Of a stretch of 64,000 nt of DNA, positions 1-54,136 are shown in pieces. Under the pieces are notes generated by a model. It saw nothing but the letters and a program-made list of their open reading frames with translations. It did no database searches and had not been told where the DNA came from. The translations under genes were made by a program, and so were the position numbers. The stretch is taken from contig JBBTSI010000011.1 in assembly GCA_038064735.1 (NCBI GenBank), positions 1,768 through 65,767 on the forward strand, in the 5' to 3' direction. This DNA comes from Patescibacteria group bacterium. Lineage in GTDB: Bacteria > Patescibacteriota > Minisyncoccia > Phycocordibacterales > WO2-35-19. Positions within the stretch are counted from its first letter, which is position 1, and each line of letters begins with the position of its first letter.

Positions 1-1107
1 GACATCAGAGATATCTAGTCCTCTAGCGGCCACATCGGTAGCCACCAAAATCTGAACTTTATTTTCTTTGAAAAGTCCTAAAGCGCGCTGGCGTCCATTT
101 TGATTTTTATTACCGTGAATTGATTCTGCTTTGAAGCCTCTCTTCACCAAAGTAGTAGAGAGCTTTTCCACACCGTGTTTGGTACGGCCGAAAATTAAAA
201 CTTTGTTGAATTCTGCTTTATTAAGTAAGTCATGAAGTATGTCGAGTTTATCCGTACCTTTTTGTACTCGCACAACATCTTGATCAATATTTTTGGCTGT
301 ATCTCTAACTTTAACCGAAACAGTGACGGGTTCGTGTAAAAATTCTTTAACTAAACCCTCAATCTCTTTGGACAAAGTCGCTGAAAAGAAAAGTGTATGG
401 CGACCTACCGGCATTTTGGCCATCATGAATCTCATATCGTTTATGAAGCCCATATCAAGCATCCGATCAGCTTCGTCAAGAACCACTGTATTGAATTCAG
501 ACAAGTTTAAACATTTATTCTCAATCATATTTTTTATTCTCCCCGGAGTACCAATGATAAATTCGTTTCGGTATTTCAAATCTCGCATTTGTTTACCCAT
601 CGGTAGTCCGCCGACAAGCAACGCCGAATAGAGCTTCATACCGAGGGTGAAGTCTTTAAGTTCTTGTTCAATTTGAATCGCAAGTTCACGAGTAGGCACG
701 ACAATCAAAACATTTTCATTTTTGTTTGCCAAAACTTTATTGATAAGCGGTATAATGAACGCCGCCGTTTTGCCGGTACCGGTATTAGCGATACCAACGA
801 CATCACTACCATTTAAGACAAACGGAATAACCTTGTCCTGAATAGGAGTAGGGAGCTGATAACCTTTTTTTATAATGTTGGCTTTGAGCCGTTCGTCGAC
901 AGCAAAATCCGCAAAACAATGTACAGGAATAAATTTTTCAACTTTTTCCTCAACTATTGTTTTGTTAATGAATCTAGCATGATCAATCCTGTCTACTTTG
1001 CCACTACGAGAACTCCTCTGAAAATTTCTTCCAGAATTTTGAGAATTCCTTTGCGGAGGTTTTTGGCCAAATCGGCCACGACTAAAATTAGTCCTTCTTT
1101 TTTCCAT
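1..1107 (-). CDS. DEAD-box ATP-dependent RNA helicase, truncated at the window edge (N-terminus at 1107). Carries an N-terminal RG-rich tail.
   Basis: Reverse-strand translation shows the Q-motif region, GTGKTAAF (Walker A), VLDEADRMLDMGF (DEAD box), SAT, and the helicase-C motif VATDVAARGLDI. Start ATG is at 1105-1107. Confidence 0.85.
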   Translation of the reverse strand, partial: MEKRRTNFSRGRFGQKPPQRNSQNSGRNFQRSSRSGKVDRIDHARFINKTIVEEKVEKFIPVHCFADFAVDERLKANIIKKGYQLPTPIQDKVIPFVLNGSDVVGIANTGTGKTAAFIIPLINKVLANKNENVLIVVPTRELAIQIEQELKDFTLGMKLYSALLVGGLPMGKQMRDLKYRNEFIIGTPGRIKNMIENKCLNLSEFNTVVLDEADRMLDMGFINDMRFMMAKMPVGRHTLFFSATLSKEIEGLVKEFLHEPVTVSVKVRDTAKNIDQDVVRVQKGTDKLDILHDLLNKAEFNKVLIFGRTKHGVEKLSTTLVKRGFKAESIHGNKNQNGRQRALGLFKENKVQILVATDVAARGLDISDV

Positions 1108-30488: not shown

Positions 30489-30555
30489 ATAACTCACCCC
30501 CAATCTAGACAGAAAGATAACTCACCCCAACCCCTCTCTTACAACAAGAGAGGGG
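30489..30555. repeat. Leader hairpin repeat, copy A: two ATAACTCACCCC boxes plus a perfect 10-bp stem-loop cccctctctt-acaac-aagagagggg.
   Basis: Boxes at 30489-30501 and 30517-30529, hairpin at 30531-30555. Relative to minus-strand pyrD the unit reads hairpin, then GGGGTGAGTTAT, then 19 nt, then ATG. Confidence 0.7.
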
Positions 30556-30593
30556 CTTCCGCCATATACGAGTTTAAAGTTATAATAGAGCTA

Positions 30594-31007
30594 ATGCCAT
30601 TACATTTCTATAATAATCAAAACCAAAAAGAAAGAAGAAGAGAACTTCGAAAAAATCAAACTGAAGCAGAAAAACTCTTATGGCAAAAAATTCGTGGAAG
30701 AAAAATAAATAATTTAAAATTTCATCGTCAATTCAGCATTGGTCCATATATTGTAGATTTTTTCTGCCCACAAATTAGACTGGCCGTAGAATTAGATGGC
30801 GAGCAACATAAGGATTCTGTGGTTTACGACAAAGAAAGAGGAAGTTTTCTGAAAGATAAAGATATTGTGACTATAAGATTTTGGAATTATGAAGTGCTAA
30901 ATGATTTGGAAAAGGTTTTGGAAAGAATCAAAAAAGAAATCGAAAATAACCCCCTTAATCCCCCTTACAACAAAGGGGAAATCGGAGGAAACCCTCTCTT
31001 GTTGTAA
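30594..31007 (+). CDS. DUF559 (Vsr-like, very-short-patch-repair endonuclease fold) protein.
   Basis: ELRKNQTEAEKLLWQKIRGRK ... YIVDFFCPQIRLAVELDGEQH. The C-terminal 15 codons run into repeat copy B. Confidence 0.7.
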   Translation: MPLHFYNNQNQKERRRELRKNQTEAEKLLWQKIRGRKINNLKFHRQFSIGPYIVDFFCPQIRLAVELDGEQHKDSVVYDKERGSFLKDKDIVTIRFWNYEVLNDLEKVLERIKKEIENNPLNPPYNKGEIGGNPLLL

Positions 31008-31027
31008 GAGATGGTAGGGTGAGTTAT
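30958..31027. repeat. Leader hairpin repeat, copy B (inverted relative to A), plus a degenerate mini-hairpin ccccttacaacaaagggg.
   Basis: ccctctctt-gttgt-aagagatgg at 30992-31014, then TAGGGTGAGTTAT at 31015-31027, which is 9 nt before the S51 ATG. Confidence 0.7.
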
Positions 31028-31036
31028 TATAAGAAT

Positions 31037-31690
31037 ATGAAATTATTTCTAACATCAAGTGGTCTAACAAATAAATCAATAATAAAAGCACTTTTTGATT
31101 TAATTGGTAAGAAACCGGAAGATACTTCTTTGGTTTTTATTCCCACTGCTTCAAATGTAGAAACAGGAGATAAAGACTGGTTTATAAATGACTTGATAAA
31201 TATTAAAAAGCAAAACTTTAAAACTATAAGCATTGCGGATATTTCCGCTGTTTCGGAAGATATCTGGAAACCACAACTAGAAGAAGCTGATGTTTTGTTT
31301 TTTGAAGGAGGAAATACATATCACCTCATGAGATGGATAAACGAGTCTGGTCTCGCCAAACTTTTGCCGGAACTACTAAAGACAAAAGTGTACGTCGGAG
31401 TAAGTGCGGGGAGTATGGTAACTGGCCCGGATTTGGCTTTAAGATTGTCCCAAGTAATATATGGTGAGGATATGGAAGAGAAAAATATGGATGGATTAGG
31501 TTTTGTTAATTTTTATTTTTTACCACACTTAAACTCACCTTATTTCCCTGCCAGAATGGAAAAAAATGCAAAAAAAGTCGCAGATGAAATATCGAAAAAG
31601 ATTTATTTTCTTGACGACCAAAGTGCATTGAAAATTGAGAATAATAAAATTGAAGTTATAAGCGAAGGGAAGTATTTAGAATATAATTAA
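31037..31690 (+). CDS. Peptidase S51 family (dipeptidase E / cyanophycinase-like class I glutamine-amidotransferase fold).
   Basis: MKLFLTSSG ... VLFFEGGNTYHLM ... VYVGVSAGSM places the Ser nucleophile in the GxSxG context. Confidence 0.6.
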   Translation: MKLFLTSSGLTNKSIIKALFDLIGKKPEDTSLVFIPTASNVETGDKDWFINDLINIKKQNFKTISIADISAVSEDIWKPQLEEADVLFFEGGNTYHLMRWINESGLAKLLPELLKTKVYVGVSAGSMVTGPDLALRLSQVIYGEDMEEKNMDGLGFVNFYFLPHLNSPYFPARMEKNAKKVADEISKKIYFLDDQSALKIENNKIEVISEGKYLEYN

Positions 31691-31711
31691 AAAATCTAAA
31701 AGCTCAGCGCT

Positions 31712-31751
31712 CCCTTCTCTTGTTGTAAGAGAAGGGAAGGGGATGAGTTAT
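31712..31751. repeat. Leader hairpin repeat, copy C.
   Basis: cccttctctt-gttgt-aagagaaggg at 31712-31736, then GGGGATGAGTTAT at 31739-31751, which is 3 nt before the ATG at 31755. Confidence 0.7.
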
Positions 31752-35384: not shown

Positions 35385-37526
35385 ATGTTTAGCGATAGAA
35401 AATTTAAAATTAAAAGAGATTTTGAGCCAGCAGGCGACCAACCGCAAGCGATTGAAAAGCTTGTAAATGGTATCAAAACAGGTCTGAAACATCAGACTCT
35501 TTTAGGTGTAACTGGTTCTGGTAAAACCTTCACTGTCGCCAATGTCATAAATGAAATTCAAAAGCCGACTTTGGTCATTGCTCACAACAAAACTTTGGCT
35601 GCCCAGCTCGCCCAAGAGTACAGAGAGTTTTTTCCTCAAAATGCGGTTCATTATTTCGTCTCTTACTACGACTACTATCAACCAGAAGCTTATATGCCAA
35701 TTTCGGATACTTATATAGAGAAAGAAGCGATGATAAATGAAGAGATTGAAAGACTGCGTCATGCTTCCACTCAAGCACTACTTACCCGTAAAGATGTCAT
35801 TATTGTGGCTTCAGTTTCTTGTATTTATGGTCTAGGTTCTCCGATTGAATATGAAAAAGTAAATATGAAAATTGCAAAAGGTGAAAAAATCTCTCGAGCA
35901 GAATTCGTCCGCAAACTTATTGACATTCATTTTGAACGTACCATAGCCGACCTCTCTCCGGGGCAATTCAGAGCCATCGGCAATAAAGTTGAAATTATGC
36001 CCGTTTCGGAAAAAGCTATTTATGAAATCAGTATCGCAGACGGCAAAATTGAAAAAATATTGAAAATAGACGCGATTACCAGAAGTATTTTGGAAGAAGT
36101 GGAAGTATTTTTCCTTTTCCCCGCCAAACATTTCATTTCTACTAAAAAACAAAACGAAAAAGCTTTCAAAACTATCAAAGCCGAGCTCGCACTGCAACTG
36201 AAGAAATTTCAAAAAGAAGGCAAACTTTTGGAAGAAGAACGGCTCAAACGCCGTACCAGTTATGACTTGGCTCTCATCCGCGAGATAGGATATTGCAACG
36301 GTATTGAAAACTATTCCAGACATTTTTCGGGCAAAAAACCTGGTGAAGCACCTGATACTTTACTCTCATATTTTCCCAAAGATTTCTTGACTATCATAGA
36401 TGAGTCCCACGTTTCTGTACCACAAATCGGAGCGATGTATTCCGGAGACGCTTCGCGTAAACAAGCACTGGTAGATTATGGTTTTCGTTTACCAAGTGCC
36501 AAAGATAACCGGCCACTTAAATTTGAAGAATTTGAAGAAAGGGTTGGTCAAGTTATTTATACCAGCGCCACTCCAAGCCATTATGAAGCAGAACACAGTG
36601 AGCAAGTCGTGGAGCAAGTCATCAGACCAACTGGTTTAGTTGATCCAATTGTTGAAGTAAGACCTATTACGGAAAGGAAGATTAGTTCTTCTTCGGCACA
36701 TGTTTCTGAATGCACGGATATTTTCTTGCTAGAAAATTCCTCGTGCTCGGCTCAGTCAGCCTCGCAAGGCATTCATAAACATATACCCTCGAAGAACTTT
36801 TCTGGGCATTACCCTGGTCAAATCGCGGACTTCATAAACGAAGCGGAAAAAAATATAAAAGCTGGTGGCAGAGTCATCGCCACTACGCTGACTAAAAAAA
36901 TGGCCGAAGATTTGAGCGAATACTTGAAAGAAAAAGGTGTCAAAGCTGAATACTTGCACAGTGATATTAAAACCATTGAACGAATTGAAATTTTGACCAA
37001 CTTACGCAAAGGCGAGTTTGATTGTTTAGTTGGAGTCAACCTTTTGCGAGAAGGTCTAGACTTACCTGAAGTAACACTCATCGGGATTTTGGACGCTGAC
37101 AAAGAAGGCTTCCTACGAAGCGACACTTCGCTTATTCAAATCATCGGCCGTGCCGCGCGAAATGTAGATGGCAAAGTTATTTTGTACGCAGACCGGATGA
37201 CCGGTTCAATGGAAAGAGCAATAAGCGAAACTAGCCGCAGACGCGTCAAACAAATCGCTTACAATAAAAAGCACGGTATTACTCCCAAAACTATTATCAA
37301 AAAAATTCAAGACATCACTGACCAACTCAGAAGTGATCATGATAAAGCAGTAGGGGAACTTATCAAAATAGATAAGAATATTTTGATAAAAGAACCTAAA
37401 AAATTAAAGAAACTTATTTCTCAGAAAGAAAAACAAATGGAAGGTGCTGTCAAAATCCTCGACTTTGAAACCGCCGCTCTTTTGCGTGATGAAATTTTGG
37501 AATTACAGAAAATTGGGAAAGTGTGA
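35385..37526 (+). CDS. uvrB: Excinuclease ABC subunit B, carrying a 48-codon in-frame insertion.
   Basis: GDQPQAIEKL, GVTGSGKTFT, helicase motifs, beta-hairpin YYDYYQPEAY, and the C-terminal UVR domain. Confidence 0.9.
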   Translation: MFSDRKFKIKRDFEPAGDQPQAIEKLVNGIKTGLKHQTLLGVTGSGKTFTVANVINEIQKPTLVIAHNKTLAAQLAQEYREFFPQNAVHYFVSYYDYYQPEAYMPISDTYIEKEAMINEEIERLRHASTQALLTRKDVIIVASVSCIYGLGSPIEYEKVNMKIAKGEKISRAEFVRKLIDIHFERTIADLSPGQFRAIGNKVEIMPVSEKAIYEISIADGKIEKILKIDAITRSILEEVEVFFLFPAKHFISTKKQNEKAFKTIKAELALQLKKFQKEGKLLEEERLKRRTSYDLALIREIGYCNGIENYSRHFSGKKPGEAPDTLLSYFPKDFLTIIDESHVSVPQIGAMYSGDASRKQALVDYGFRLPSAKDNRPLKFEEFEERVGQVIYTSATPSHYEAEHSEQVVEQVIRPTGLVDPIVEVRPITERKISSSSAHVSECTDIFLLENSSCSAQSASQGIHKHIPSKNFSGHYPGQIADFINEAEKNIKAGGRVIATTLTKKMAEDLSEYLKEKGVKAEYLHSDIKTIERIEILTNLRKGEFDCLVGVNLLREGLDLPEVTLIGILDADKEGFLRSDTSLIQIIGRAARNVDGKVILYADRMTGSMERAISETSRRRVKQIAYNKKHGITPKTIIKKIQDITDQLRSDHDKAVGELIKIDKNILIKEPKKLKKLISQKEKQMEGAVKILDFETAALLRDEILELQKIGKV
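36672..36815. repeat. In-frame palindromic insertion element (144 nt) within uvrB.
   Basis: Positions 36712-36770 are identical to 40672-40730 in uvrC. The 3' end GAAGAACTTTTCTGGGCA matches the right inverted end of the mnmA element. Excising it restores the canonical UvrB spacing between VEVRPIT and GQIADF. Confidence 0.8.
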
Positions 37527-37603: not shown

Positions 37604-40270
37604 ATGGTTAAAAAAGAAACAACAAAAGAAGATGGAAAATTAATCGTCCGAGGGGCGAGGACACACAACCTTAAGAATATTACAGTTGAGATGCCTCGCA
37701 ATAAGATGATTGCTTTCACGGGACTTTCCGGCTCAGGCAAGTCTTCTTTGGCATTTGATACTATTTTTGCCGAAGGGCAAAGGCGCTATGTGGAGTCGCT
37801 TTCATCTTATGCTCGCCAATTTTTGCGCCAAATGCAAAAACCCGATGTAGATGAAATCGTGGGGCTCAGTCCGGCCATTTCTATTGATCAAAAATCTCGC
37901 TCAAATAATCCACGTTCAACAGTAGCTACTATCACTGAAATATACGATTACCTACGTATACTTTATGCCAGAGTAGGCCACCCGCATTGTTTGGTTTGCG
38001 GTGATGAAATCAAAAAACTTTCAAACGAAGAGATCAAAAATTTTATTTCGGAAAGAATTTCCGAAATTAAAATAAAAAGCGGAAAAAATTCTAATAAAAT
38101 TCAATTGCCGGTTTATGTAGAAATTTTCGCGCCTATCGTGCGTGGCAGGAAAGGCGAATACTATCAATTACTTTATGATCTGCTCGGTAAGGGCTACACT
38201 CATGTTCTTATAGATGGGAAAAAGAAAGCTTTGCGCGAGCAAATTATTTTAACGAAAACCAAAAGACACAATATCGACGTCTTGGTAGACAGTATCAGTA
38301 TGCTCGACTTCATCGGGGATCAAAAAAGCGCCGAAGAAAGGTTGTCGGAAGATTTGGAAAAAGCGCTTGAAGAATCTGAAGGCATGGTCAAAATAATGTT
38401 TAGAGATATGGCGCTCGAAAAAAATAAAGATTATGTGCCAGAAGAAATTTTTATGTCCAATAAACTTTCCTGCCCGAAAGACGGCTATTCATATCCGGAA
38501 GTTGAACCGCGCCTTTTTTCTTTCAACTCACCATATGGCGCTTGCCCTGAATGTAACGGCCTTGGCACTCGCCATTTCTTCGGCGAGGAATCTTGTCCGG
38601 TCTGTAACGGCGCTAGACTCCGACCAGAAGCTTTGCATGTGACTCTTGGCAAGTCGCCTTCGTCAAAGACTTCGGCGGACCAAGGACAAAACATCGTAGA
38701 CCTCACATCAATGTCTATCAAAGACGTTTATGATTTCTTTATTGAACTCAAACTTACCGAAAGGGAAAAAAATATTTCCAAAGTGGTGATGAAAGAAATT
38801 GAATCAAGACTGGAGTTCATGATAAACGTCGGCATTGACTACCTCTCACTTGACCGCAGAGCCCACACTCTCTCGGGTGGTGAAGCTCAGCGCATCCGCC
38901 TAGCCAGCCAACTCGGCTCAGGACTAGTCGGCGCTCTTTATGTGCTTGATGAGCCAACCATCGGCCTCCATTCCCGTGACAATGACCGCTTGGTCAAAAC
39001 TTTGCTCACGCTCCGTGACCTCGGCAATACTATAATAGTGGTGGAACACGACGAAGATACTATCTTTGCTTCGGACTATATCGTTGATATTGGACCAAAG
39101 GCAGGCGTCCATGGCGGTGAAATCGTAGTCTCCGGATATTTGGATGAGCTTCTCACTGCTAAGCAAAACAAATCCGGTTCCGTAACTTTAGATTATTTGC
39201 GTGGAGACAATGTGATAGAAATTCCGGATAAAAGGAGAGGACAAGACAAAGGTTCGCTGCAAATCCGCGGAGGCAAAGTTTTCAATATTAAAAATATGAA
39301 TGTAGATGTACCGCTTGGCAAACTGGTAGCTGTAACCGGTGTTTCCGGTTCGGGCAAATCTTCTTTCGTTTACGAAATTTTGCACAAAAATTTGCAGGCG
39401 CGTTTTGAACGCAAATACCGCAGTGCACAAACTTTCAATTGTGCGTCTTTCACAGGTACAGAATATCTGGGCCGAGCCATTTTGATTGATCAGTCACCGA
39501 TAGGGCGTACGCCGAGGTCCAACCCCGCTACTTATACAGGAAGTTGGACTTTCATCCGCGAACTTTTCGCTGAGACAGCGGAAGCAAGAGCGCGTGGTTG
39601 GAAGGCCAGTCGATTTTCCTTCAACGTAGCAGGCGGGCGCTGTGAAGTTTGCGGTGGTAACGGCGAAATAGAAGTAGAAATGCATTTTTTACCGACCGTT
39701 TATGTGCCTTGCGATGTTTGCCGTGGCAAAAGATTTATGAAAGAAACTTTGGAAGTGAAATACAAAAAGAAAAATATTTACGAAATTTTGGAAATGACAG
39801 TTGAGGAAGCGCTAACCTTTTTTGAAGATATCCCTGCAGTTTATGACAGACTCAAGACGCTCAATGAAGTGGGTCTGGGTTATTTGAAACTCGGACAATC
39901 AGCCACCACCCTTTCCGGTGGGGAAGCACAAAGAGTGAAAATTTCATCGGAGCTTTATCGTCCGCACCTGCAAAAAACTATTTATCTACTTGATGAGCCG
40001 ACCATCGGTCTGCATTATGAAGATGTCAAAAAACTGATAGAAATTTTGCAAAAATTAGTAAACAAGGGAAACACAGTAGTGGTCATTGAACACAATATGG
40101 ATATCATCAAATCCTGCGATTATGTTTTGGATATTGGTCCCGAAGGCGGCGACCTTGGCGGTAACCTCGTCGCCAAAGGCACTCCCGAAGAAATCGCCAA
40201 CAACTCCAAATCTCACACCGGCAAGTATTTAAAGAAAGCATTGAAACAATATGCAGCACATAAAAAATAA
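37604..40270 (+). CDS. uvrA: Excinuclease ABC subunit A (888 aa); the insertion domain appears to be missing.
   Basis: Two ABC modules ([17 protein letters not shown] x2) and Zn modules. CPECNGLG and CPVCNG are only 9 residues apart, against about 125 in E. coli. Confidence 0.9.
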
Positions 40271-41585
40271 AATATCAAAATTGCCGGATGCGCCGGGGGT
40301 GTATTTTTTTCTTCGGGCGCCGAAGCCTAGCGAAGGAGGCAAACCTAAGATTCTTTATATTGGCAAAGCGACTTCGCTAAGAAGTAGGGTGAAGAGTTAT
40401 TTCAATGGAAGAATTGAAGAAACTCGAGGACCGCTGATTTCCAAAATGCTCAGCGAATTTACTGATATTAAATTCCAAAAAACCGATTCGGTTTTGGAAG
40501 CGCTCATTTTGGAAGCTAACCTCATCAAAAAGCACCAGCCCGAAGCCAACACTGACGAAAAAGACGACAAAAGTTTTAATTATGTAGTTATCACTAAAGA
40601 AGATTGGCCGAGAGTTTTAGTTATGCGAGAGAAAGAACTTCGAACTTTTTTTTCACCACATTCTTCGAAAAGCACGGATATTTTCTTGCTAGAAAATTCC
40701 TCGTGCTCGGCTCAGTCAGCCTCGCAAGGCTTTTCTCAGAACGATGGTTCAAAAAAGTTTTCAATCTCTAAAACTTTCGGACCATTTACAAACGGCGCAC
40801 AGCTCAAAGAAGCGATGAAAATCGTCCGCAAGATTTTCCCATTTAGGGATAAATGTGAAATAGGGCAAAAAAGAGCATGTTTCAATCGCCAAATCGGACT
40901 TTGTTCTGGAGTTTGTACTGGTGAAATATCCAAAAAAGATTACGGAAAGCAAATCAAAAATATTGTTTTGTTTTTTGAGGGTAAGAAAAAAGCTTTGATA
41001 AAAAATTTGGAAAAGCAGATGAAAGCATTCTCTAATTCGCGCGAATATGAGAATGCGGGAAAAATAAAAAGGCAGATTTTTGCCCTTTATCATATCCAAG
41101 ATGTCTCACTGATAAAAAGTGAAAATATAATAAATCTAAATTCAAACCAAACATTCAGAATTGAAAGCTACGATATAGCACACCTCTCGGGCACTAATGT
41201 AGTAGGAGCAATGACTGTGGTAGAAAATGGAGAAATTAAAAAAACAGATTACCGCAAATTCAAAATCAGAAGTGCGACAATCGACGACACCAAAGCCCTC
41301 TCTGAAGTTTTAGCTCGTAGATTAAATCATTCCGAATGGCCGATGCCTGATTTAATAGTAGTCGATGGGGGAGAAGCTCAAAAACGAGCCGTAGAAAAAG
41401 TTTTAAAAATCAATTCAAAAAACATTCCGGTCGTCTCTGTCGTTAAAGACGAAAGACATAAACCAAAAGATATTTTAGGAGATAAAAAATGGCTAAAGCA
41501 GGAAACCGAAATACTTCTAGCTAATGCCGAAGCCCACCGCTTTGCCATAAGCTTCCACAGGAATCTCCGTCGAAAGTTGTCTTAA
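40251..41585 (+). CDS. uvrC: Excinuclease ABC subunit C (444 aa), lacking the (HhH)2 tail and carrying an in-frame repeat insertion.
   Basis: GIY-YIG GVYFF ... ILYIGKA, the UVR domain, and an RNase-H-like endonuclease domain. Overlaps the uvrA end by 20 nt. Confidence 0.85.
   Translation: MQHIKNKISKLPDAPGVYFFLRAPKPSEGGKPKILYIGKATSLRSRVKSYFNGRIEETRGPLISKMLSEFTDIKFQKTDSVLEALILEANLIKKHQPEANTDEKDDKSFNYVVITKEDWPRVLVMREKELRTFFSPHSSKSTDIFLLENSSCSAQSASQGFSQNDGSKKFSISKTFGPFTNGAQLKEAMKIVRKIFPFRDKCEIGQKRACFNRQIGLCSGVCTGEISKKDYGKQIKNIVLFFEGKKKALIKNLEKQMKAFSNSREYENAGKIKRQIFALYHIQDVSLIKSENIINLNSNQTFRIESYDIAHLSGTNVVGAMTVVENGEIKKTDYRKFKIRSATIDDTKALSEVLARRLNHSEWPMPDLIVVDGGEAQKRAVEKVLKINSKNIPVVSVVKDERHKPKDILGDKKWLKQETEILLANAEAHRFAISFHRNLRRKLS
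40656..40740. repeat. In-frame palindromic insertion element within uvrC.
   Basis: A 59-nt core identical to the uvrB copy, with ends CGAAAAGC and GCTTTTCT. It encodes PHSSKSTDIFLLENSSCSAQSASQG in the variable linker after the GIY-YIG domain. Confidence 0.75.
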
Positions 41586-50933: not shown

Positions 50934-52007
50934 ATGAATTTTTGGTTAAAGTTAAAAGAAAAAGTGGCTGTTTTGCTTGAGCGTGAATCAAGCCATGTCC
51001 AGCTCATCGCTTGGCGAAATCGTGTCACCAAAATAGTAGTATTTTTTGATAAAAATATTCTAAAAATATTGGCTGGTGCTCTTTTGTTATTATTTTTTAT
51101 TTCCATATTTTATTTTTTGGCTTGGCGCGCACCAAGAGGTTTCCCTGATCAAGCTCTCGTCACAGTTGAAAAAGGTGAATCTCTTTCTCAGGTGGCCACT
51201 TCTTTTGAAGAAAAGAAAATTATCCGTTCCGATTTTTGGCTCAAAGCAATCATTTTCATTATGGGCGGTCAAAAAAGAGTAGTGGCTGGGGATTATTATT
51301 TCCCTTCATCAGTAAATGTTTTCAGAGTAGCAACCATGATCCACAACGGAAAATTTGGTCTAATTTCTATCAAAGTTACCATTCCCGAAGGATCTTCTTC
51401 TTATGAGATTGCTGAAATTTTAAAAAAAGAAATACCAAGTTTTGATTCCAAAGGATTCACCAGTGAAGTTACAGACAATAATTACGAAGGTTTCCTTTTT
51501 CCTGATACTTATTTCTTTACTCCCAATGTCAAAGCTCTCGACGTGATATTGATGATGCGGGAAAATTTCGCCAGACAAATAGATCCTTACAAAGAAGATA
51601 TTTTAAAATCTAAGAAATCGCTCAATGATATAGTTATCATGGCTTCGATTGTAGAAGATGAATCCAATAGTTCACAAGAAAACAAAAGAATTGTGGCAGG
51701 AATTTTGTGGGAAAGATTGCGTTTGAAGATGCCTCTCCAAGTTGATTCTGCTTTTCAATATTACAACGGTAAAAATTCTTACACTTTAACCAAAACAGAC
51801 TTAGCGGAAGATCACCCTTACAACACTTACGTCAACAAAGGCTTACCACCAACAGCAATCACTAACCCAGGAATTGAATCTATCAAGGCAGCTATTGCTC
51901 CAACTCAAACTAAATATTTATATTTCTTATCAGACAAAAAAGGCAATATGTACTATGCCAAAGATTTTGAAGAACATAAATTAAATAGAGAGCTTTATTT
52001 GAATTGA
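50934..52007 (+). CDS. mltG: Endolytic murein transglycosylase MltG (YceG-like).
   Basis: TM anchor, YceG core GILWERLRLKMPLQVDSAFQY ... DHPYNTYVNKGLPPTAI. Confidence 0.8.
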   Translation: MNFWLKLKEKVAVLLERESSHVQLIAWRNRVTKIVVFFDKNILKILAGALLLLFFISIFYFLAWRAPRGFPDQALVTVEKGESLSQVATSFEEKKIIRSDFWLKAIIFIMGGQKRVVAGDYYFPSSVNVFRVATMIHNGKFGLISIKVTIPEGSSSYEIAEILKKEIPSFDSKGFTSEVTDNNYEGFLFPDTYFFTPNVKALDVILMMRENFARQIDPYKEDILKSKKSLNDIVIMASIVEDESNSSQENKRIVAGILWERLRLKMPLQVDSAFQYYNGKNSYTLTKTDLAEDHPYNTYVNKGLPPTAITNPGIESIKAAIAPTQTKYLYFLSDKKGNMYYAKDFEEHKLNRELYLN

Positions 52008-52030
52008 TTTTTCTGATACATTGTGTGCCT

Positions 52031-53239
52031 ATGAAAAAAGTGAATATAATTCATCCTGAGAAAAGTCGAATGGTATTTGTGGGATTATCTGGAGGTGTAG
52101 ACAGCGCTGTAAGTGCCGCTTTACTCAAAAAAGACGGTTTCAATGTGACCGGAGTTTTTATCAAAGCTTGGACTCCCGAGGGTTATCCTTGCACTTGGAA
52201 AGAAGACAGGCGAAGCGCGATGAAAGTAGCGGCTATTTTGGATATTCCTTTTATCACACTTGATTTGGAAAAAGAATACAAAAAAGAAGTAGTGGACTAT
52301 ATGATCGCTGAATACAAAACCGGACGAACACCAAACCCCGATGTGATGTGTAACAAAGAAATCAAGTTTGGTCATTTCTTAAAATTCGCCCTAAAAAATG
52401 GTGCCAATTTCGTAGCCACGGGACACTACGCACAAATATCACACTCAAAGTTGCCCAGAAAAGTTCTCGAGAAAAGTCTGGCCTGTGCAACAAGGAGACC
52501 CGAGGACTTTTCAGAGAGAAGCTTTTCTGGGCAACTTTTAGAAGGAAAAGACAAAAATAAAGACCAGAGTTATTTTTTATGGACTCTTACTCAAGAACAA
52601 CTTAAACATATTTTATTTCCAATTGGTGGTTTACAAAAATCTGAAGTCAGAAAACTGGCAGACAAATTTGGTTTGCCTCAAGCTACTCGCAAAGATAGCC
52701 AAGGACTCTGTTTTCTCGGCAAAGTGGATATGAAAGAATTTTTGTCACGTTATATGCCACCCCAAAAAGGAAACGTAATAAACGAAAATGAGGAAATTAT
52801 CGGCACACATAACGGCGCTTTATTTTTTACTATCGGTGAACGCCATGGCTTCACCATCACCAAAAAATCTGAAAAAGAAGAACCTCTATATGTTACCGCT
52901 AAAAATATTGAAAAAAATACCATCATGGTTGCTTCCATCGCCAGAAAAAAATTGCCCCTGAAAAAGTCCTCGGGTCTCCTCGCTGAAGCTCGGCCAGACT
53001 TTTCCATTGACAATTTTCTTTCTGGCTGCAGTTCTGTGTTTTTAAAAGATATAAATATTACAGAGAAAATACCAAACAAAAACCTGACTTGCCGTATCAG
53101 ATACAGACAAGAAAAAATCGGATGTAAAATGGATAGAGATAAAGTAACTTTTAACAAATCCCAAATGGGAGTGGCTCCAGGCCAATCTCTAGTTTTATAT
53201 CAAGATGAAGTTTGTTTAGGTGGTGGTATAATAAAATAA
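52031..53239 (+). CDS. mnmA: tRNA-specific 2-thiouridylase MnmA, carrying two in-frame repeat insertions.
   Basis: PP-loop GLSGGVDSAV, TGRTPNPDVMCNKEIKF, KDQSYFLW, and C-terminal PGQSLVLYQDEVCLGGGII. Confidence 0.85.
   Translation: MKKVNIIHPEKSRMVFVGLSGGVDSAVSAALLKKDGFNVTGVFIKAWTPEGYPCTWKEDRRSAMKVAAILDIPFITLDLEKEYKKEVVDYMIAEYKTGRTPNPDVMCNKEIKFGHFLKFALKNGANFVATGHYAQISHSKLPRKVLEKSLACATRRPEDFSERSFSGQLLEGKDKNKDQSYFLWTLTQEQLKHILFPIGGLQKSEVRKLADKFGLPQATRKDSQGLCFLGKVDMKEFLSRYMPPQKGNVINENEEIIGTHNGALFFTIGERHGFTITKKSEKEEPLYVTAKNIEKNTIMVASIARKKLPLKKSSGLLAEARPDFSIDNFLSGCSSVFLKDINITEKIPNKNLTCRIRYRQEKIGCKMDRDKVTFNKSQMGVAPGQSLVLYQDEVCLGGGIIK
52451..52534. repeat. 84-nt palindromic element with 13-bp terminal inverted repeats, inserted in frame in mnmA.
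   Basis: TTGCCCAGAAAAG ... CTTTTCTGGGCAA flank a nested inner palindrome GAAAAGTC ... GACTTTTC. It encodes LPRKVLEKSLACATRRPEDFSERSFSGQ. Excision restores E. coli-like spacing between GHY and LLEGKDKNKDQSYF. Confidence 0.8.
52951..53004. repeat. 54-nt truncated copy of the same element in inverted orientation, also in frame in mnmA.
   Basis: Its reverse complement aligns with the inner part of 52451..52534, sharing GAAAAGTCTGGCC ... GGAGACCCGAGGACTTTT. Confidence 0.7.
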
Positions 53240-53242
53240 TGA

Positions 53243-53306
53243 ATCCCGTTAGAAATTTATGGGATTATAAAGTAAAAAGAAATATTAATAGTTATTTCTA
53301 ACGGGA
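53243..53306. promoter_or_regulatory. 14-bp inverted repeat whose right arm overlaps the RBS and start codon of the next gene.
   Basis: aatcccgttagaaat at 53243-53257 pairs with atttctaacgggat at 53290-53303. The ATG is at 53306. Confidence 0.35.
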
Positions 53307-54136
53307 TGAATAATAAATACATTATAAAAGCGACTGGTGAAAGAGAGGAATTTAATCCTCAAAAATTACAAGATTCTTTGATGCGAGCCGGAGCCAGCGA
53401 AGAAGAAGTTAATAGTATTGTTGAAAAAATAGAAAAAGAACTCCAAGACGGTGCCAGCACTAAAGATATTTATATACATGCCTTTAAACTTTTGAAAAAA
53501 GAAGGGAGTCAGGCAACACCAAGATATTCACTTCGCCGAGCAGTAATGGAACTTGGGCCAACTGGTTTTCCTTTTGAACAATTTGTTGCTGAAATATTCC
53601 GCACTAAAGGTTTTGAAACTCAAACTGACTTCATTGCTCAAGGTCAGTGTGCCGAACACGAAGTTGATATAGTCGCATGGAATAATGACAAACTTATAAT
53701 GGTAGAAGCTAAATTCCATAACGAACTCGGTATTAAATCCGATTTAAAAGTAGCGCTTTACGTCAATTCTCGTTGGGAAGATTTGGCAGAATCAACCTTC
53801 AATTTCGGTAAAGAAAGAAAATTAGATGAAGGTTGGCTTATCACCAATACCAAATTTTCCGAATCAGCTGTAAATTACGCCAAATGCAGAAATATGAAGT
53901 TAGTCGGCTGGAACTATCCAGAAAAGGGCAACCTGCAAGATTTAATAGAAGAAGCTAATTTGCACCCTATCACTTGCCTCAACTCAAGTACCCCTAGTGA
54001 TGAAAAGCTTTTGATGGAAGCCGGTATCGTACTTTGCAAACAAGCCCGCGACAATCCTGATATTTTAAAACAAGCTGGTCTCTCTCCAGAAAAAATTGCA
54101 AAAATGATGACAGAAATTGATTTGATACAAAAATAA
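53306..54136 (+). CDS. ATP-cone domain fused to a Mrr-like PD-(D/E)xK restriction-endonuclease-fold domain.
   Basis: The ATP-cone reads YIIKATGEREEFNPQKLQDSLMRAGA. The nuclease core reads FEQFVAEIFRTKGFE ... HEVDIVAW ... IMVEAKFH. Confidence 0.5.
   Translation: MNNKYIIKATGEREEFNPQKLQDSLMRAGASEEEVNSIVEKIEKELQDGASTKDIYIHAFKLLKKEGSQATPRYSLRRAVMELGPTGFPFEQFVAEIFRTKGFETQTDFIAQGQCAEHEVDIVAWNNDKLIMVEAKFHNELGIKSDLKVALYVNSRWEDLAESTFNFGKERKLDEGWLITNTKFSESAVNYAKCRNMKLVGWNYPEKGNLQDLIEEANLHPITCLNSSTPSDEKLLMEAGIVLCKQARDNPDILKQAGLSPEKIAKMMTEIDLIQK

What the first reader, a model, noticed from the sequence alone, without database searches (positions are those of the whole stretch)
36672..36815. Identical 59-nt sequence embedded in frame in both uvrB and uvrC, a mobile palindromic element that contributes protein sequence
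uvrB 36712-36770 and uvrC 40672-40730 are identical over 59 nt (GCACGGATATTTTCTTGCTAGAAAATTCCTCGTGCTCGGCTCAGTCAGCCTCGCAAGGC), and similarity extends about 20 nt further 5' (CACAT...GCACGG). Both copies are in frame and add the same peptide, TDIFLLENSSCSAQSASQG, to two unrelated proteins. In UvrB the 144-nt insert lies exactly between conserved VEVRPIT and GQIADF, and removing it restores canonical spacing. In UvrC it lies in the variable linker after the GIY-YIG domain. The core folds as GCACG-ATTTTC-loop-GAAAAT-CGTGC, and the copies end in CGAAAAGC / GCTTTTCT-type inverted termini. This is the behaviour described for Rickettsia palindromic elements, which are selfish repeats tolerated inside ORFs. 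It has not to my knowledge been described for this lineage, and here it involves two nucleotide-excision-repair genes.
Basis: seen in the sequence. Interest (0 to 1): 0.85.

Follow-up and report, generated by a model that had tools for sequence, protein, structure and literature searches.

The report
Widespread in-frame hairpin repeat in Paceibacteria
The identical 59 bases in uvrB and uvrC are the conserved centre of a roughly 120-nt hairpin-forming repeat that is scattered through many Patescibacteria (CPR) genomes, usually between genes but about one time in ten read in frame inside housekeeping proteins, much like the Rickettsia palindromic elements.

Summary
Window 36712-36770 and 40672-40730 are identical over 59 nt and both lie in frame. 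They are two copies of a dispersed repeat family.

- **Distribution.** A 24-nt piece of the core hit at least 115 stretches (row-capped), nearly all in Patescibacteria MAGs. A covariance model found about 35 further, diverged copies in those loci.
- **Architecture.** Each copy has a long basal stem whose sequence is copy-specific but paired. On top sits a conserved three-way junction with two hairpins. Covariation is strong in all three helices.
- **Location.** Most copies are intergenic, often just after a stop codon. About 15 sit in frame inside SecA, Dus, TsaD, TGT, Fmt, RNase R, ComEC, MetRS and UvrB, using the four frames the core leaves open.
- **Empty sites.** The uvrB element (126 nt, 36678-36803) is absent from all 119 closest UvrB homologues. 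It lies at a site where about 30 of them carry other, unrelated inserts. The uvrC element (117 nt, 40643-40759) is old: 19 of the 120 listed homologues (the window's own protein included) carry an insert at that site, one confirmed at DNA level in inverted orientation.
- **No partner or prior record.** I found no transposase partner, no target duplication, no Rfam match and no prior description.

It behaves like an RPE. Unlike a decaying relic, its core is at least as conserved as the host genes.

The parts
35385..37526 (+). uvrB ORF (713 aa), host of copy 1
   Evidence: ORF list. Pfam UvrB, Helicase_C, UvrB_inter, ResIII and UVR. PDB UvrB E = 8.6e-238.
36678..36803 (+). Element copy 1: whole hairpin, 126 nt = 42 codons (KISSSSAHVSECTDIFLLENSSCSAQSASQGIHKHIPSKNFS). 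Boundaries are good to a few nt.
   Evidence: Empty site in L117. Inverted-repeat arms 36679-36713 / 36769-36803 (I1). Fold -46.6 kcal/mol, z = -4.7 on the + strand and -58.7, z = -8.4 on the - strand. CM score 93.9 bits.
36712..36770 (+). Conserved core of copy 1: GCAC, hairpin P2 36716-40 (bulged T, TGCT loop), TCG, helix/hairpin P3 36744-66, AGGC.
   Evidence: Exact 59-mer. Structure and covariation.
37604..40270 (+). uvrA ORF between the two hosts (context only; no element).
   Evidence: ORF list. CM search finds nothing here.
40251..41585 (+). uvrC ORF (444 aa, no HhH domain), host of copy 2
   Evidence: ORF list. Pfam GIY-YIG, UVR and UvrC_RNaseH_dom.
40643..40759 (+). Element copy 2: whole hairpin, 117 nt = 39 codons, in the linker after the GIY-YIG domain.
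   Evidence: Arms 40643-40673 / 40729-40759 (I2). Fold -36 kcal/mol, z = -4.4. CM score 88.8 bits. 39-aa excess over empty-site homologues. Orthologous copies in L121 and, inverted, in L120.
40672..40730 (+). Conserved core of copy 2, identical to 36712-36770.
52447..52539 (+). Third in-frame palindromic insert in the window, inside mnmA (52004-53239). It belongs to a different repeat family: different centre, but arm sequence CTCGAGAACTTTTCTGGGC resembling the 3' arm of copy 1.
   Evidence: CM weak hit and blast. Sequence and ORF. Excess residues against solved MnmA. Fold -48.2 kcal/mol, z = -6.6. Same centre as the insert at the UvrB site of L118.

Best explanation
The two sequences are copies of a non-autonomous, hairpin-forming repeat family that is widespread in Paceibacteria-type Patescibacteria.

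The unit that is copied is the whole hairpin, about 115-150 nt. It has a long imperfect basal stem and an apical three-way junction of about 59 nt with two small hairpins. The apical junction is the sequence-constrained part and is presumably the cis-acting site recognised by whatever copies or maintains the element. The basal stem only has to pair, so it drifts through compensatory changes and differs between copies.

New copies land without a target duplication. They survive only where they do no harm. That means short intergenic spacers, typically right after a stop codon, or permissive surface loops and linkers of proteins, when the length is a multiple of three and the reading frame is one of the four the core leaves open. 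There the element is translated as a peptide of about 40 residues, probably disordered.

In this genome the uvrC copy is an old, inherited insertion. The uvrB copy is a lineage-private insertion of a sub-family also seen in comEC of related genomes.

Shown: the repeat family, its structure and covariation, the in-frame hosts, the empty sites, and the age difference between the two copies. Inferred: mobility as a unit, translation, and the existence of a trans-acting factor. Whether the structure acts as single-stranded DNA or as RNA is not resolved.
For: **Family and distribution.**
- The 24-mer hit at least 115 stretches, nearly all in Patescibacteria MAGs, with several per genome.
- The CM found 133 hits in 689 kb, up to 5 per 8 kb.

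**Structure.**
- A copy's own flanks pair at a mean of -32.8 kcal/mol, against -13.2 for the flanks of different copies.
- 90.3% of cells are paired against 67.9% in shuffles. All 17 basal pairs and 5 of 7 P3 pairs change on both sides. Pair 50-73 is UA:45 / AU:32 with none unpaired.
- Diverged copies covary in P2 as well, and keep the bulged T and the TGCT loop.

**Copied as a unit.**
- Three copies identical from end to end sit in UvrB, TGT and MetRS of one MAG, with unrelated flanks.
- The window's uvrB copy is 95% identical over 105 nt to a comEC copy in another MAG.

**In-frame hosts.** SecA, Dus x3, UvrB, Zincin_1, TsaD, TGT, Fmt, RNB, ComEC x2 and MetRS. Exactly the four frames not closed by the CTAG in the loop are used.

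**Empty sites and age.**
- uvrB: 0 of 119 homologues share this insert. L117 is empty, with DNA homology breaking at 36675/36816.
- uvrC: 19 of the 120 listed homologues (the window's own protein included) carry an insert at this site, including the closest ones. Others are empty. DNA confirms L121 (same orientation), L120 (same site and length, inverted) and L122 (empty).

**Translated rather than removed.**
- All orthologous copies stay open and in frame despite divergence.
- Genes flanking the 'intergenic' copies are separate, complete genes, not halves of one gene.

**Non-autonomous.** No protein family recurs next to the copies.

**Insert placement.** The insert is the lowest-confidence, unstructured part of a (poor) UvrB model, lying between a strand and the first helix of the next domain.
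Against: - No mobilising enzyme, target duplication, conserved terminal repeat or target motif was found, so 'mobile' rests on copy distribution only.
- Fixed, vertically inherited copies are more conserved than a decaying selfish relic should be. The element is 91.5% identical between the window and L121, while the flanking uvrC coding sequence is 64-66% identical. Other pairs give 71-77% against 59-71%. This points to selection on the sequence itself, or to ongoing gene conversion.
- Orientation is biased. From my tally of the list, 47 sense against 15 antisense copies abut a gene's 3' end. Simple neutral insertion does not predict this.
- Translation of the insert has not been observed directly.
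Confidence: 0.7

Rival explanations
1. The hairpin is a functional structured nucleic acid used by the cell, or by a dedicated protein. Candidates include an mRNA 3'-end stabiliser or processing signal, a protein-binding RNA module, a recombination or replication hairpin in single-stranded DNA, or a DNA-uptake signal maintained by transformation-driven gene conversion. On this view the in-ORF copies are tolerated by-products.
For: - The core, including loop, bulge and junction bases, is nearly invariant across many lineages, while all helices covary.
- Orthologous copies are at least as conserved as the host coding sequence, and clearly more so in one pair.
- There is a roughly 3:1 sense bias at gene 3' ends, and the upstream stop codon usually lies 22-56 nt before hairpin P2.
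- No transposase and no target duplication were found.
- The copies in the uvrB and uvrC genes have cores identical to those of other species.
Against: - Copy number varies widely: 2 copies in 64 kb here, against 5 per 8 kb elsewhere.
- Positions differ between close relatives.
- Copies occur in both orientations, inside ORFs in four frames, and next to unrelated genes.
- There is no Rfam family.
- Wobble statistics do not single out the transcribed strand: AC/CA 82 against GT/TG 35, which favours the complement.
Confidence: 0.2
2. The 59-nt identity is a gene-conversion patch between two older, otherwise diverged hairpin inserts. Alternatively, only the core is the recently moving part and it invades the loops of pre-existing hairpins. 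Either way the two copies are not a recent duplication of one element.
For: - Identity ends sharply at the core, and the stems are only about 60% alike.
- The uvrC stems are inherited: 91.5% identical to L121 across the element.
- The uvrB stems match a comEC sub-family.
- The UvrB site carries other hairpin families in relatives.
- Many intergenic copies sit where terminator hairpins would be.
Against: - The core is equally identical between different species, so strong constraint alone explains the identity.
- Whole hairpins, stems included, are duplicated within genomes.
- No orthologous 'stem without core' was found. The empty sites L117 and L122 lack the stems too.
Confidence: 0.15
3. The insert is removed before the mature protein is made, as an intron-like RNA or an intein-like peptide.
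For: The long stem brings the two junctions together, as in some excised RNAs.
Against: - At 39-42 aa the insert is far too short for an intein.
- There is no intron family hit.
- All intragenic copies are multiples of three and free of stops, and stay so in diverged orthologues. Removal would not require this.
- In the five gene pairs tested, no gene was found split by a copy.
Confidence: 0.03
4. The finding is an assembly artefact, or an ancient native protein segment.
For: The window comes from a metagenome-assembled genome, and repeats can mis-join contigs.
Against: - The family is seen in more than 100 independent assemblies.
- Both reading frames are intact.
- The uvrC insert is shared by many independently assembled homologues.
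- The uvrB protein is on 3 contigs in two archives.
- Empty sites in close relatives exclude a native segment.
Confidence: 0.02

Closest known systems
Rickettsia palindromic elements (RPE; Ogata et al. 2000, as summarised in PMC10969869)
   Same: Dispersed hairpin-forming repeats of about 100-150 bp with no coding capacity of their own. They are frequently inserted in frame in unrelated housekeeping genes, adding a peptide at permissive sites. They occur in small, host-dependent bacteria.
   Different: - The lineage is unrelated, and sequence homology was not tested.
- Here only about 10% of copies are intragenic, against nearly half for some RPE families.
- The element has an asymmetric, nearly invariant three-way-junction core, with stems that differ completely between copies but covary.
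- Fixed copies are not decaying.
Bacterial MITEs (Correia, ERIC, BOX, RUP and others)
   Same: Small and non-autonomous, multi-copy, able to fold, mostly intergenic, and occasionally fused in frame to ORFs.
   Different: MITEs are defined by terminal inverted repeats conserved among copies, by target-site duplications and by a parent IS element. None of these was found here. What is conserved here is the centre, not the ends.
REP/BIME elements with RAYT transposases, and the IS200/IS605 end hairpins
   Same: Hairpins recognised by structure, with extrahelical bases. There is no target duplication. They are located after genes and show strand asymmetry.
   Different: REPs are 20-40 bp with a GTAG/CGTC head (PMC3733652). 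No Y1/HUH gene recurs near the copies. The long stem plus three-way junction has no counterpart.
Integron attC sites
   Same: Imperfect palindromes of 60-140 nt lying directly after ORFs. They are conserved in structure rather than sequence, and extrahelical bases set the strand.
   Different: In attC the base of the stem is conserved and the centre is variable, which is the reverse of this element. There are no cassette arrays and no integrase nearby. These copies also occur inside ORFs.
Coding palindromes and hairpin elements in organelle genes (for example Nematomorpha mitochondria, PMC6649704)
   Same: Long inverted repeats embedded in frame in essential protein genes.
   Different: These are organellar, are not one conserved family shared across genomes, and have no conserved apical core.
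DNA uptake sequences (DUS/USS) of naturally competent bacteria (from general knowledge)
   Same: Highly conserved, over-represented motifs shared by related species. They often lie in hairpins after genes and are tolerated in coding frames. They spread without a transposase or a target duplication.
   Different: DUS/USS are about 10-30 bp motifs, not 120-nt structured units. No uptake data exist for CPR. This is an analogy only.

Membership tests
RPE-like in-frame palindromic repeat (behavioural class) | Dispersed multi-copy element of about 100-150 nt | tested here: met
   At least 115 stretches in the genome collection. 133 CM hits. Median hairpin length 145 nt.
RPE-like in-frame palindromic repeat (behavioural class) | Palindromic, stable hairpin | tested here: met
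   Folds with z = -4.4 to -8.4. Own-flank against cross-flank duplex energies. Covariation.
RPE-like in-frame palindromic repeat (behavioural class) | Inserted in frame in unrelated ORFs without disrupting them, with orthologues lacking the insert | tested here: met
   Pfam-confirmed hosts. Empty sites for UvrB and UvrC.
Rickettsia RPE-1..10 families (homology) | Sequence similarity to the Rickettsia consensus sequences | not tested
The lineage is different, so membership is not claimed.
MITE | Terminal inverted repeats conserved among copies | tested here: not met
   The arms are copy-specific. Only the centre is conserved.
MITE | Target-site duplication | tested here: not met
   No duplication at the three identical REEB237 copies, nor at the uvrB empty/filled pair. 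The A/T-rich palindromic ends at uvrC are ambiguous.
MITE | Parent autonomous element or transposase with matching ends | tested here: inconclusive
   No protein family recurs within the 8-kb loci. Whole genomes were not searchable.
Intein | Splicing domain of at least about 130 aa with terminal Cys/Ser and His-Asn | tested here: not met
   The inserts are 42 and 39 aa. No Pfam domain lies in the insert.
Group I/II intron or other Rfam RNA family | Match to a curated covariance model | tested here: not met
   The only window hit at gathering score is a tRNA elsewhere. Nothing relevant up to E = 10 over 36600-36900.
Integron attC | Conserved R''/R' sites at the base, variable centre, cassette context with an integrase | tested here: not met
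   The conservation pattern is the reverse. Copies are solitary with no recurrent neighbour.
REP/RAYT | Palindrome of 20-40 bp with a GTAG or CGTC head, plus a RAYT gene | tested here: not met
   Size and motif differ. No recurrent neighbour.

The most novel reading that the evidence does not exclude
The conserved three-way junction, with its invariant bulge, loop and junction bases, is the recognition site of a dedicated CPR protein that has not yet been identified. On this reading the element is an active, structure-guided system: either a new hairpin-specific mobilisation or recombination mechanism that leaves no target duplication, or a signal such as a structured DNA-uptake or mRNA-end signal that the cell or the element uses. 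That would explain why fixed copies inside genes stay more conserved than the genes themselves, and why a segment in the middle of the stem differs between copies yet stays perfectly paired.
Probability: 0.25. Interest if true: 0.85.

Novelty: new variant of a known kind. Interest (0 to 1): 0.62.

Why it matters
In-frame selfish palindromes have been a curiosity known mainly from Rickettsia and from organelles. Finding a large, well-conserved family across Paceibacteria has several consequences.

- **Generality.** Extremely reduced, host-dependent bacteria can repeatedly carry such elements inside essential proteins.
- **Annotation.** It gives annotators of CPR genomes an explanation for many odd insertions of about 40 residues and for spurious small ORFs.
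- **Permissive sites.** It identifies permissive loops, such as the UvrB VRP|GQI linker, which has been hit by at least three repeat families.
- **A model for study.** The family combines an invariant core with covarying stems and has many natural variants. That makes it a tractable system for asking what recognises the element and how it spreads without a transposase signature.
- **A new RNA/DNA motif.** The covariance model built here defines a candidate structured motif that is absent from Rfam.

Tried and rejected
- **Rfam.** The window at gathering threshold, and the element at E up to 10, gave nothing relevant.
- **tRNA/tmRNA scan.** Nothing at the element.
- **Peptide search.** A profile of the shared peptide found only two short ORFs in 5.8 billion proteins, so the word index is insensitive to this query. 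DNA scans were far more productive.
- **Viral contigs.** 0 hits, so there is no evidence for a phage vector.
- **Neighbour-gene clustering.** This looked for a transposase or partner. Only scattered housekeeping families recur.
- **Target duplications or target motif.** None were consistent at identical copies or at filled/empty pairs.
- **Split-gene (intron-like) test.** Five pairs of ORFs flanking 'intergenic' copies were scanned. In three, both partners matched different Pfam families. In L012 only the upstream ORF matched, and in L106 neither did. No pair looked like two halves of one gene.
- **Strand of function.** The complement strand folds better in 63 of 85 copies, and AC/CA outnumber GT/TG by 82 to 35. 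However, gene-orientation bias points the other way. This is left unresolved.
- **Hammerhead, riboswitch or TIGR-array readings (by eye).** The junction strands CAC / UCG / AAG do not fit the hammerhead core. Copies sit inside or after ORFs rather than in 5' leaders. Copies are solitary, not tandem.
- **Metagenome scans.** A scan for an empty or filled allele of the window's own uvrB flank found nothing. A scan for the stem-core junction of the uvrB sub-family retrieved only the already known Hainich contig.
- **The look-up of encoding contigs.** The window's own UvrB is not on record.
- **AlphaFold model of UvrB.** Overall confidence is poor (mean pLDDT 56). It was used only to note that residues 431-475 are the least confident and unstructured. 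No fold search was run on it.
Full report

Yes. The 59-mer occurs exactly twice in the window, at 36712-36770 and 40672-40730, both on the + strand. None of 100 shuffles produced a match. Ungapped similarity extends over 88 nt at 89%.

Both copies lie in long ORFs that Pfam and solved structures identify as UvrB (35385-37526) and UvrC (40251-41585), with uvrA between them. Both encode TDIFLLENSSCSAQSASQG.

A sensitive blastn and a covariance model built later find no third copy in the 64 kb.

**2. What the element looks like**

Each copy folds into a long, imperfect basal stem topped by a three-way junction with two small hairpins (z = -4.4 to -8.4). The junction and hairpins are the identical 59 nt. 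The basal stems of the two copies differ in sequence, yet both pair.

A 24-nt piece of the first hairpin was scanned against one genome per prokaryotic species. Nearly all hits were in Patescibacteria MAGs, with labels including Paceibacterota, Zambryski-, Yonath-, Nomura-, Vogel-, Taylor-, Giovannoni-, Moran- and Wildermuthbacteria, Minisyncoccia, and some 'Saccharibacteria' labels I did not verify. Several hits often came from one MAG.

All copies show the same plan. It reads: variable stem, CAC, GGAUAUUUUCU-UGCU-AGAAAAUUCC with a bulged U, UCG, a second helix (U/A)GC-UC-(GC-rich hairpin)-UC-GC(A/U), AAG, then the variable stem again.

- **Flank pairing.** The flanks of one copy pair with each other at a mean of -32.8 kcal/mol. 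Flanks of different copies give -13.2. Below -25 kcal/mol there are 62/85 own-flank pairs against 2/85 cross pairs.
- **Covariation on 77 distinct copies.** 90.3% of cells are standard pairs, against 67.9% after shuffling and 40-54% after sliding the partner. All 17 basal pairs and 5 of 7 pairs of the second helix change on both sides. One pair is UA in 45 copies and AU in 32, and is never unpaired.
- **Diverged copies.** The covariance model found 133 copies in 689 kb of these loci. About 35 lack the exact 24-mer, and there are up to five per 8 kb. In the diverged copies the first hairpin covaries too (for example GCAUAAUUUUC-UGCU-GAAAAUUUGC), while the bulged U and the UGCU loop stay.

Within one MAG (ELA554), seven copies share the inner stem and an outer motif (CGCTCG / CTCGCT). 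They differ completely, but complementarily, in an 8-11-bp middle segment.

**3. Where copies sit**

Of 120 copies with the exact 24-mer, about 99 are intergenic and about 21 lie within long ORFs. After Pfam checks, roughly 15 are true internal insertions. The hosts are SecA, three Dus, UvrB (at another site, antisense), a zincin, TsaD, TGT, Fmt, RNase R, two ComEC and MetRS.

Four reading frames are used, two per strand. These are exactly the frames not closed by the TAG of the palindromic CTAG in the hairpin loop.

Intergenic copies usually fill the spacer. The upstream gene is co-oriented in 58 cases against 35, and its stop codon typically lies 22-56 nt before the first hairpin. By my tally of the list, 47 sense and 15 antisense copies abut a gene's 3' end.

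For five pairs of ORFs flanking such copies I ran Pfam. In three pairs both partners matched different families: RNase H | ComEC, enolase | histidine phosphatase, and a Glucodextran_B-like ORF | RecA. In a fourth only the upstream ORF matched (ribosomal protein S7), and in the fifth neither did. No pair looked like one gene split in two.

No protein family recurs near the copies. No copy was found on viral contigs.

**4. Is it an insertion, and how old?**

*UvrB.* Solved UvrB chains have a single residue where the window has 49. Among the 119 closest homologues in a 5.8-billion-protein collection, none has this insert. However, about 30 carry other inserts of 15-57 residues at the same VRP|GQI position.

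- The closest orthologue with DNA (L117, 84% protein identity) reads ITEK|AKYKGQIADF.
- Nucleotide homology to the window breaks at 36675/36816.
- The element is therefore 126 nt = 42 codons (36678-36803), matching the inverted-repeat arms 36679-36713 / 36769-36803.

Two of the other inserts at this site were examined at DNA level. Both are hairpin repeats of other families. L118 carries the same family as a 93-nt in-frame palindrome that I found inside mnmA of this window, at 52447-52539. L119 carries the CCCCTCTCTT...AAGAGAGGGG hairpin that also occurs three times around 30525-31742 in the window. The site is thus a permissive hot spot.

The uvrB copy, stems included, is 95% identical over 105 nt to a copy inside comEC of another MAG (L096). 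It is 84% identical over 94 nt to L113, which carries an orthologous comEC insertion. Both comEC copies are in frame despite their divergence.

*UvrC.* 19 of the 120 listed homologues (the window's own protein included) have an insert at the same place, including the closest ones (P0124, P0131: TDIFLLENSSCSPQSGSQG). Diverged versions also occur (HGNFLLKISSVRRRRSSRG...). Others are empty.

DNA gives three states:
- L121 has the same element in the same orientation.
- L122 is empty.
- L120 has the same element at the same site with the same length, but inverted with its arms swapped. This fits either an in-place flip between the terminal inverted repeats or insertion in either orientation.

The element is 117 nt = 39 codons (40643-40759). 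The uvrC copy is therefore old and inherited, whereas the uvrB copy is private to this lineage.

**5. What the 59-nt identity means**

It is not by itself a sign of recent duplication. The same core is 100% identical over 65 nt in copies from other species (L111, L086).

Orthologous copies are at least as conserved as the genes that host them. Window against L121 gives 91.5% for the element and 64-66% for the flanking uvrC coding sequence. Other pairs give 71-77% against 59-71%. This is unlike a decaying relic. It calls for direct selection on the nucleotide sequence, or for continuing conversion from other copies.

**6. How it most likely works**

*Shown:*
- A multi-copy family with a conserved three-way-junction core and covarying stems.
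- Duplication of whole hairpins within genomes: three end-to-end identical copies in UvrB, TGT and MetRS of MAG REEB237, with unrelated flanks and no target duplication.
- Survival in spacers and in frame in permissive protein regions.
- Presence/absence differences between relatives.

*Inferred:*
- The hairpin is copied as a unit by a trans-acting function that recognises the apical junction.
- The stems only need to pair.
- Intragenic copies are translated. All are multiples of three and free of stops, and they stay so in diverged orthologues.
- In a low-confidence UvrB model the insert (residues 431-475) is the least confident, unstructured stretch, lying between a strand and the first helix of the next domain.

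*Unresolved:* whether the folded form that matters is single-stranded DNA or RNA.
- G-U-type cells are few.
- The complement strand folds better in 63 of 85 copies.
- AC/CA mismatches outnumber GT/TG by 82 to 35.
- Gene-orientation bias favours the other strand.

**7. Rivals**

- A host- or element-level function of the structure is not excluded (about 0.2). Possibilities are an mRNA-end or processing signal, a protein-binding module, a single-stranded-DNA recombination site, or an uptake signal maintained by conversion. This is the best explanation for the conservation and the orientation bias.
- Core-only conversion, or invasion of pre-existing hairpins, could explain the sharp edges of identity. 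However, no stem-without-core orthologue was seen.
- Intron or intein removal, misassembly and 'native segment' are effectively excluded.

**8. Comparison with what is known**

In behaviour this matches the Rickettsia palindromic elements, as summarised in PMC10969869. Homology to them was not tested and is not claimed.

- It fails the defining MITE features. Terminal repeats are not conserved, there is no target duplication, and no parent IS was found.
- It differs from REP/RAYT in size and head motif.
- It differs from integron attC sites, where the conservation pattern is the reverse.
- It matches no Rfam family.
- Full-text searches found no description for CPR/Patescibacteria.

**9. Verdict**

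This is a new variant of a known kind: an RPE-like in-frame hairpin repeat. It is distinguished by an invariant three-way-junction core, copy-specific covarying stems, a wide distribution across Paceibacteria, and conservation that exceeds that of its host genes. The involvement of two excision-repair genes is incidental.

Noticed in passing
window 52447-52539 (inside mnmA, ORF 52004-53239): A 93-nt near-perfect palindrome lies in frame, adding roughly 23-30 residues between TGHYA and KDQSYFL. It belongs to a different repeat family with centre GTCTGGCC...GGAGACCCGAGGAC. Part of its arm (CTCGAGAACTTTTCTGGGC) resembles the 3' arm of the uvrB element. The same family is inserted at the UvrB VRP|GQI site in L118.
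   Followed up: partly
window 30525-30555, 30992-31022, 31712-31742: Three copies of a CCCCTCTCTT-loop-AAGAGAGGGG hairpin repeat surround a DUF559-like ORF (30594-31007). The same repeat, translated as THPNPSLTLREGRE, is inserted at the UvrB hot spot in relatives (L119; P0010, P0012, P0019, P0032).
   Followed up: partly
UvrB homologues P0003-P0122, site equivalent to window 36675-36816: About 30 of 120 close UvrB homologues carry unrelated inserts of 15-57 residues at the same inter-domain linker. This is a hot spot hit by at least three hairpin-repeat families.
   Followed up: partly
L048:980, L081:5101, L083:3237, L091:1936, L094:703 (variants in L054:250 and L055:6397): This sub-family has the same first hairpin, and some members (L048, L094) also carry the GC-rich second hairpin seen in the main family. 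The junctions differ (GTCAC...GCGACCCC...TCCGG) and there is no long basal stem. In four of the five main loci (L048, L081, L091, L094) the copy lies beside tRNA or 5S genes on the opposite strand, and in two (L091, L094) a terminator-like hairpin follows. In L083 it is flanked by a direct repeat of about 40 nt. There is no Rfam match.
   Followed up: partly
L120:1501-2853 (uvrC of a relative): The same element sits at the same uvrC site with the same length, but in inverted orientation with the arms swapped. This suggests an in-place flip between the terminal inverted repeats.
   Followed up: yes
L001:735-1016: A group-I-intron-like RNA (Rfam 32 bits, below the gathering score) is joined to what I read by eye as a 23S rRNA 3' fragment (not confirmed by any tool). 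It lies just downstream of an element copy and of an RNase PH gene, with no upstream 23S exon in view.
   Followed up: no
window 40603-40620 and 40768-40785: The conserved uvrC coding sequences on either side of the element (DWPRVLV and SKTFGPF) are themselves an 18-nt inverted repeat, 83% complementary, which extends the hairpin. This may be chance, or the palindrome may have spread into its flanks.
   Followed up: no
window 40251-41585: UvrC here, like its Paceibacteria homologues (376-491 aa), is short. Pfam finds no C-terminal helix-hairpin-helix domain.
   Followed up: no
window 53236-53314: A 21-bp-arm hairpin, 86% complementary, begins at the stop codon of mnmA. It may be a terminator or yet another hairpin repeat.
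   Followed up: no
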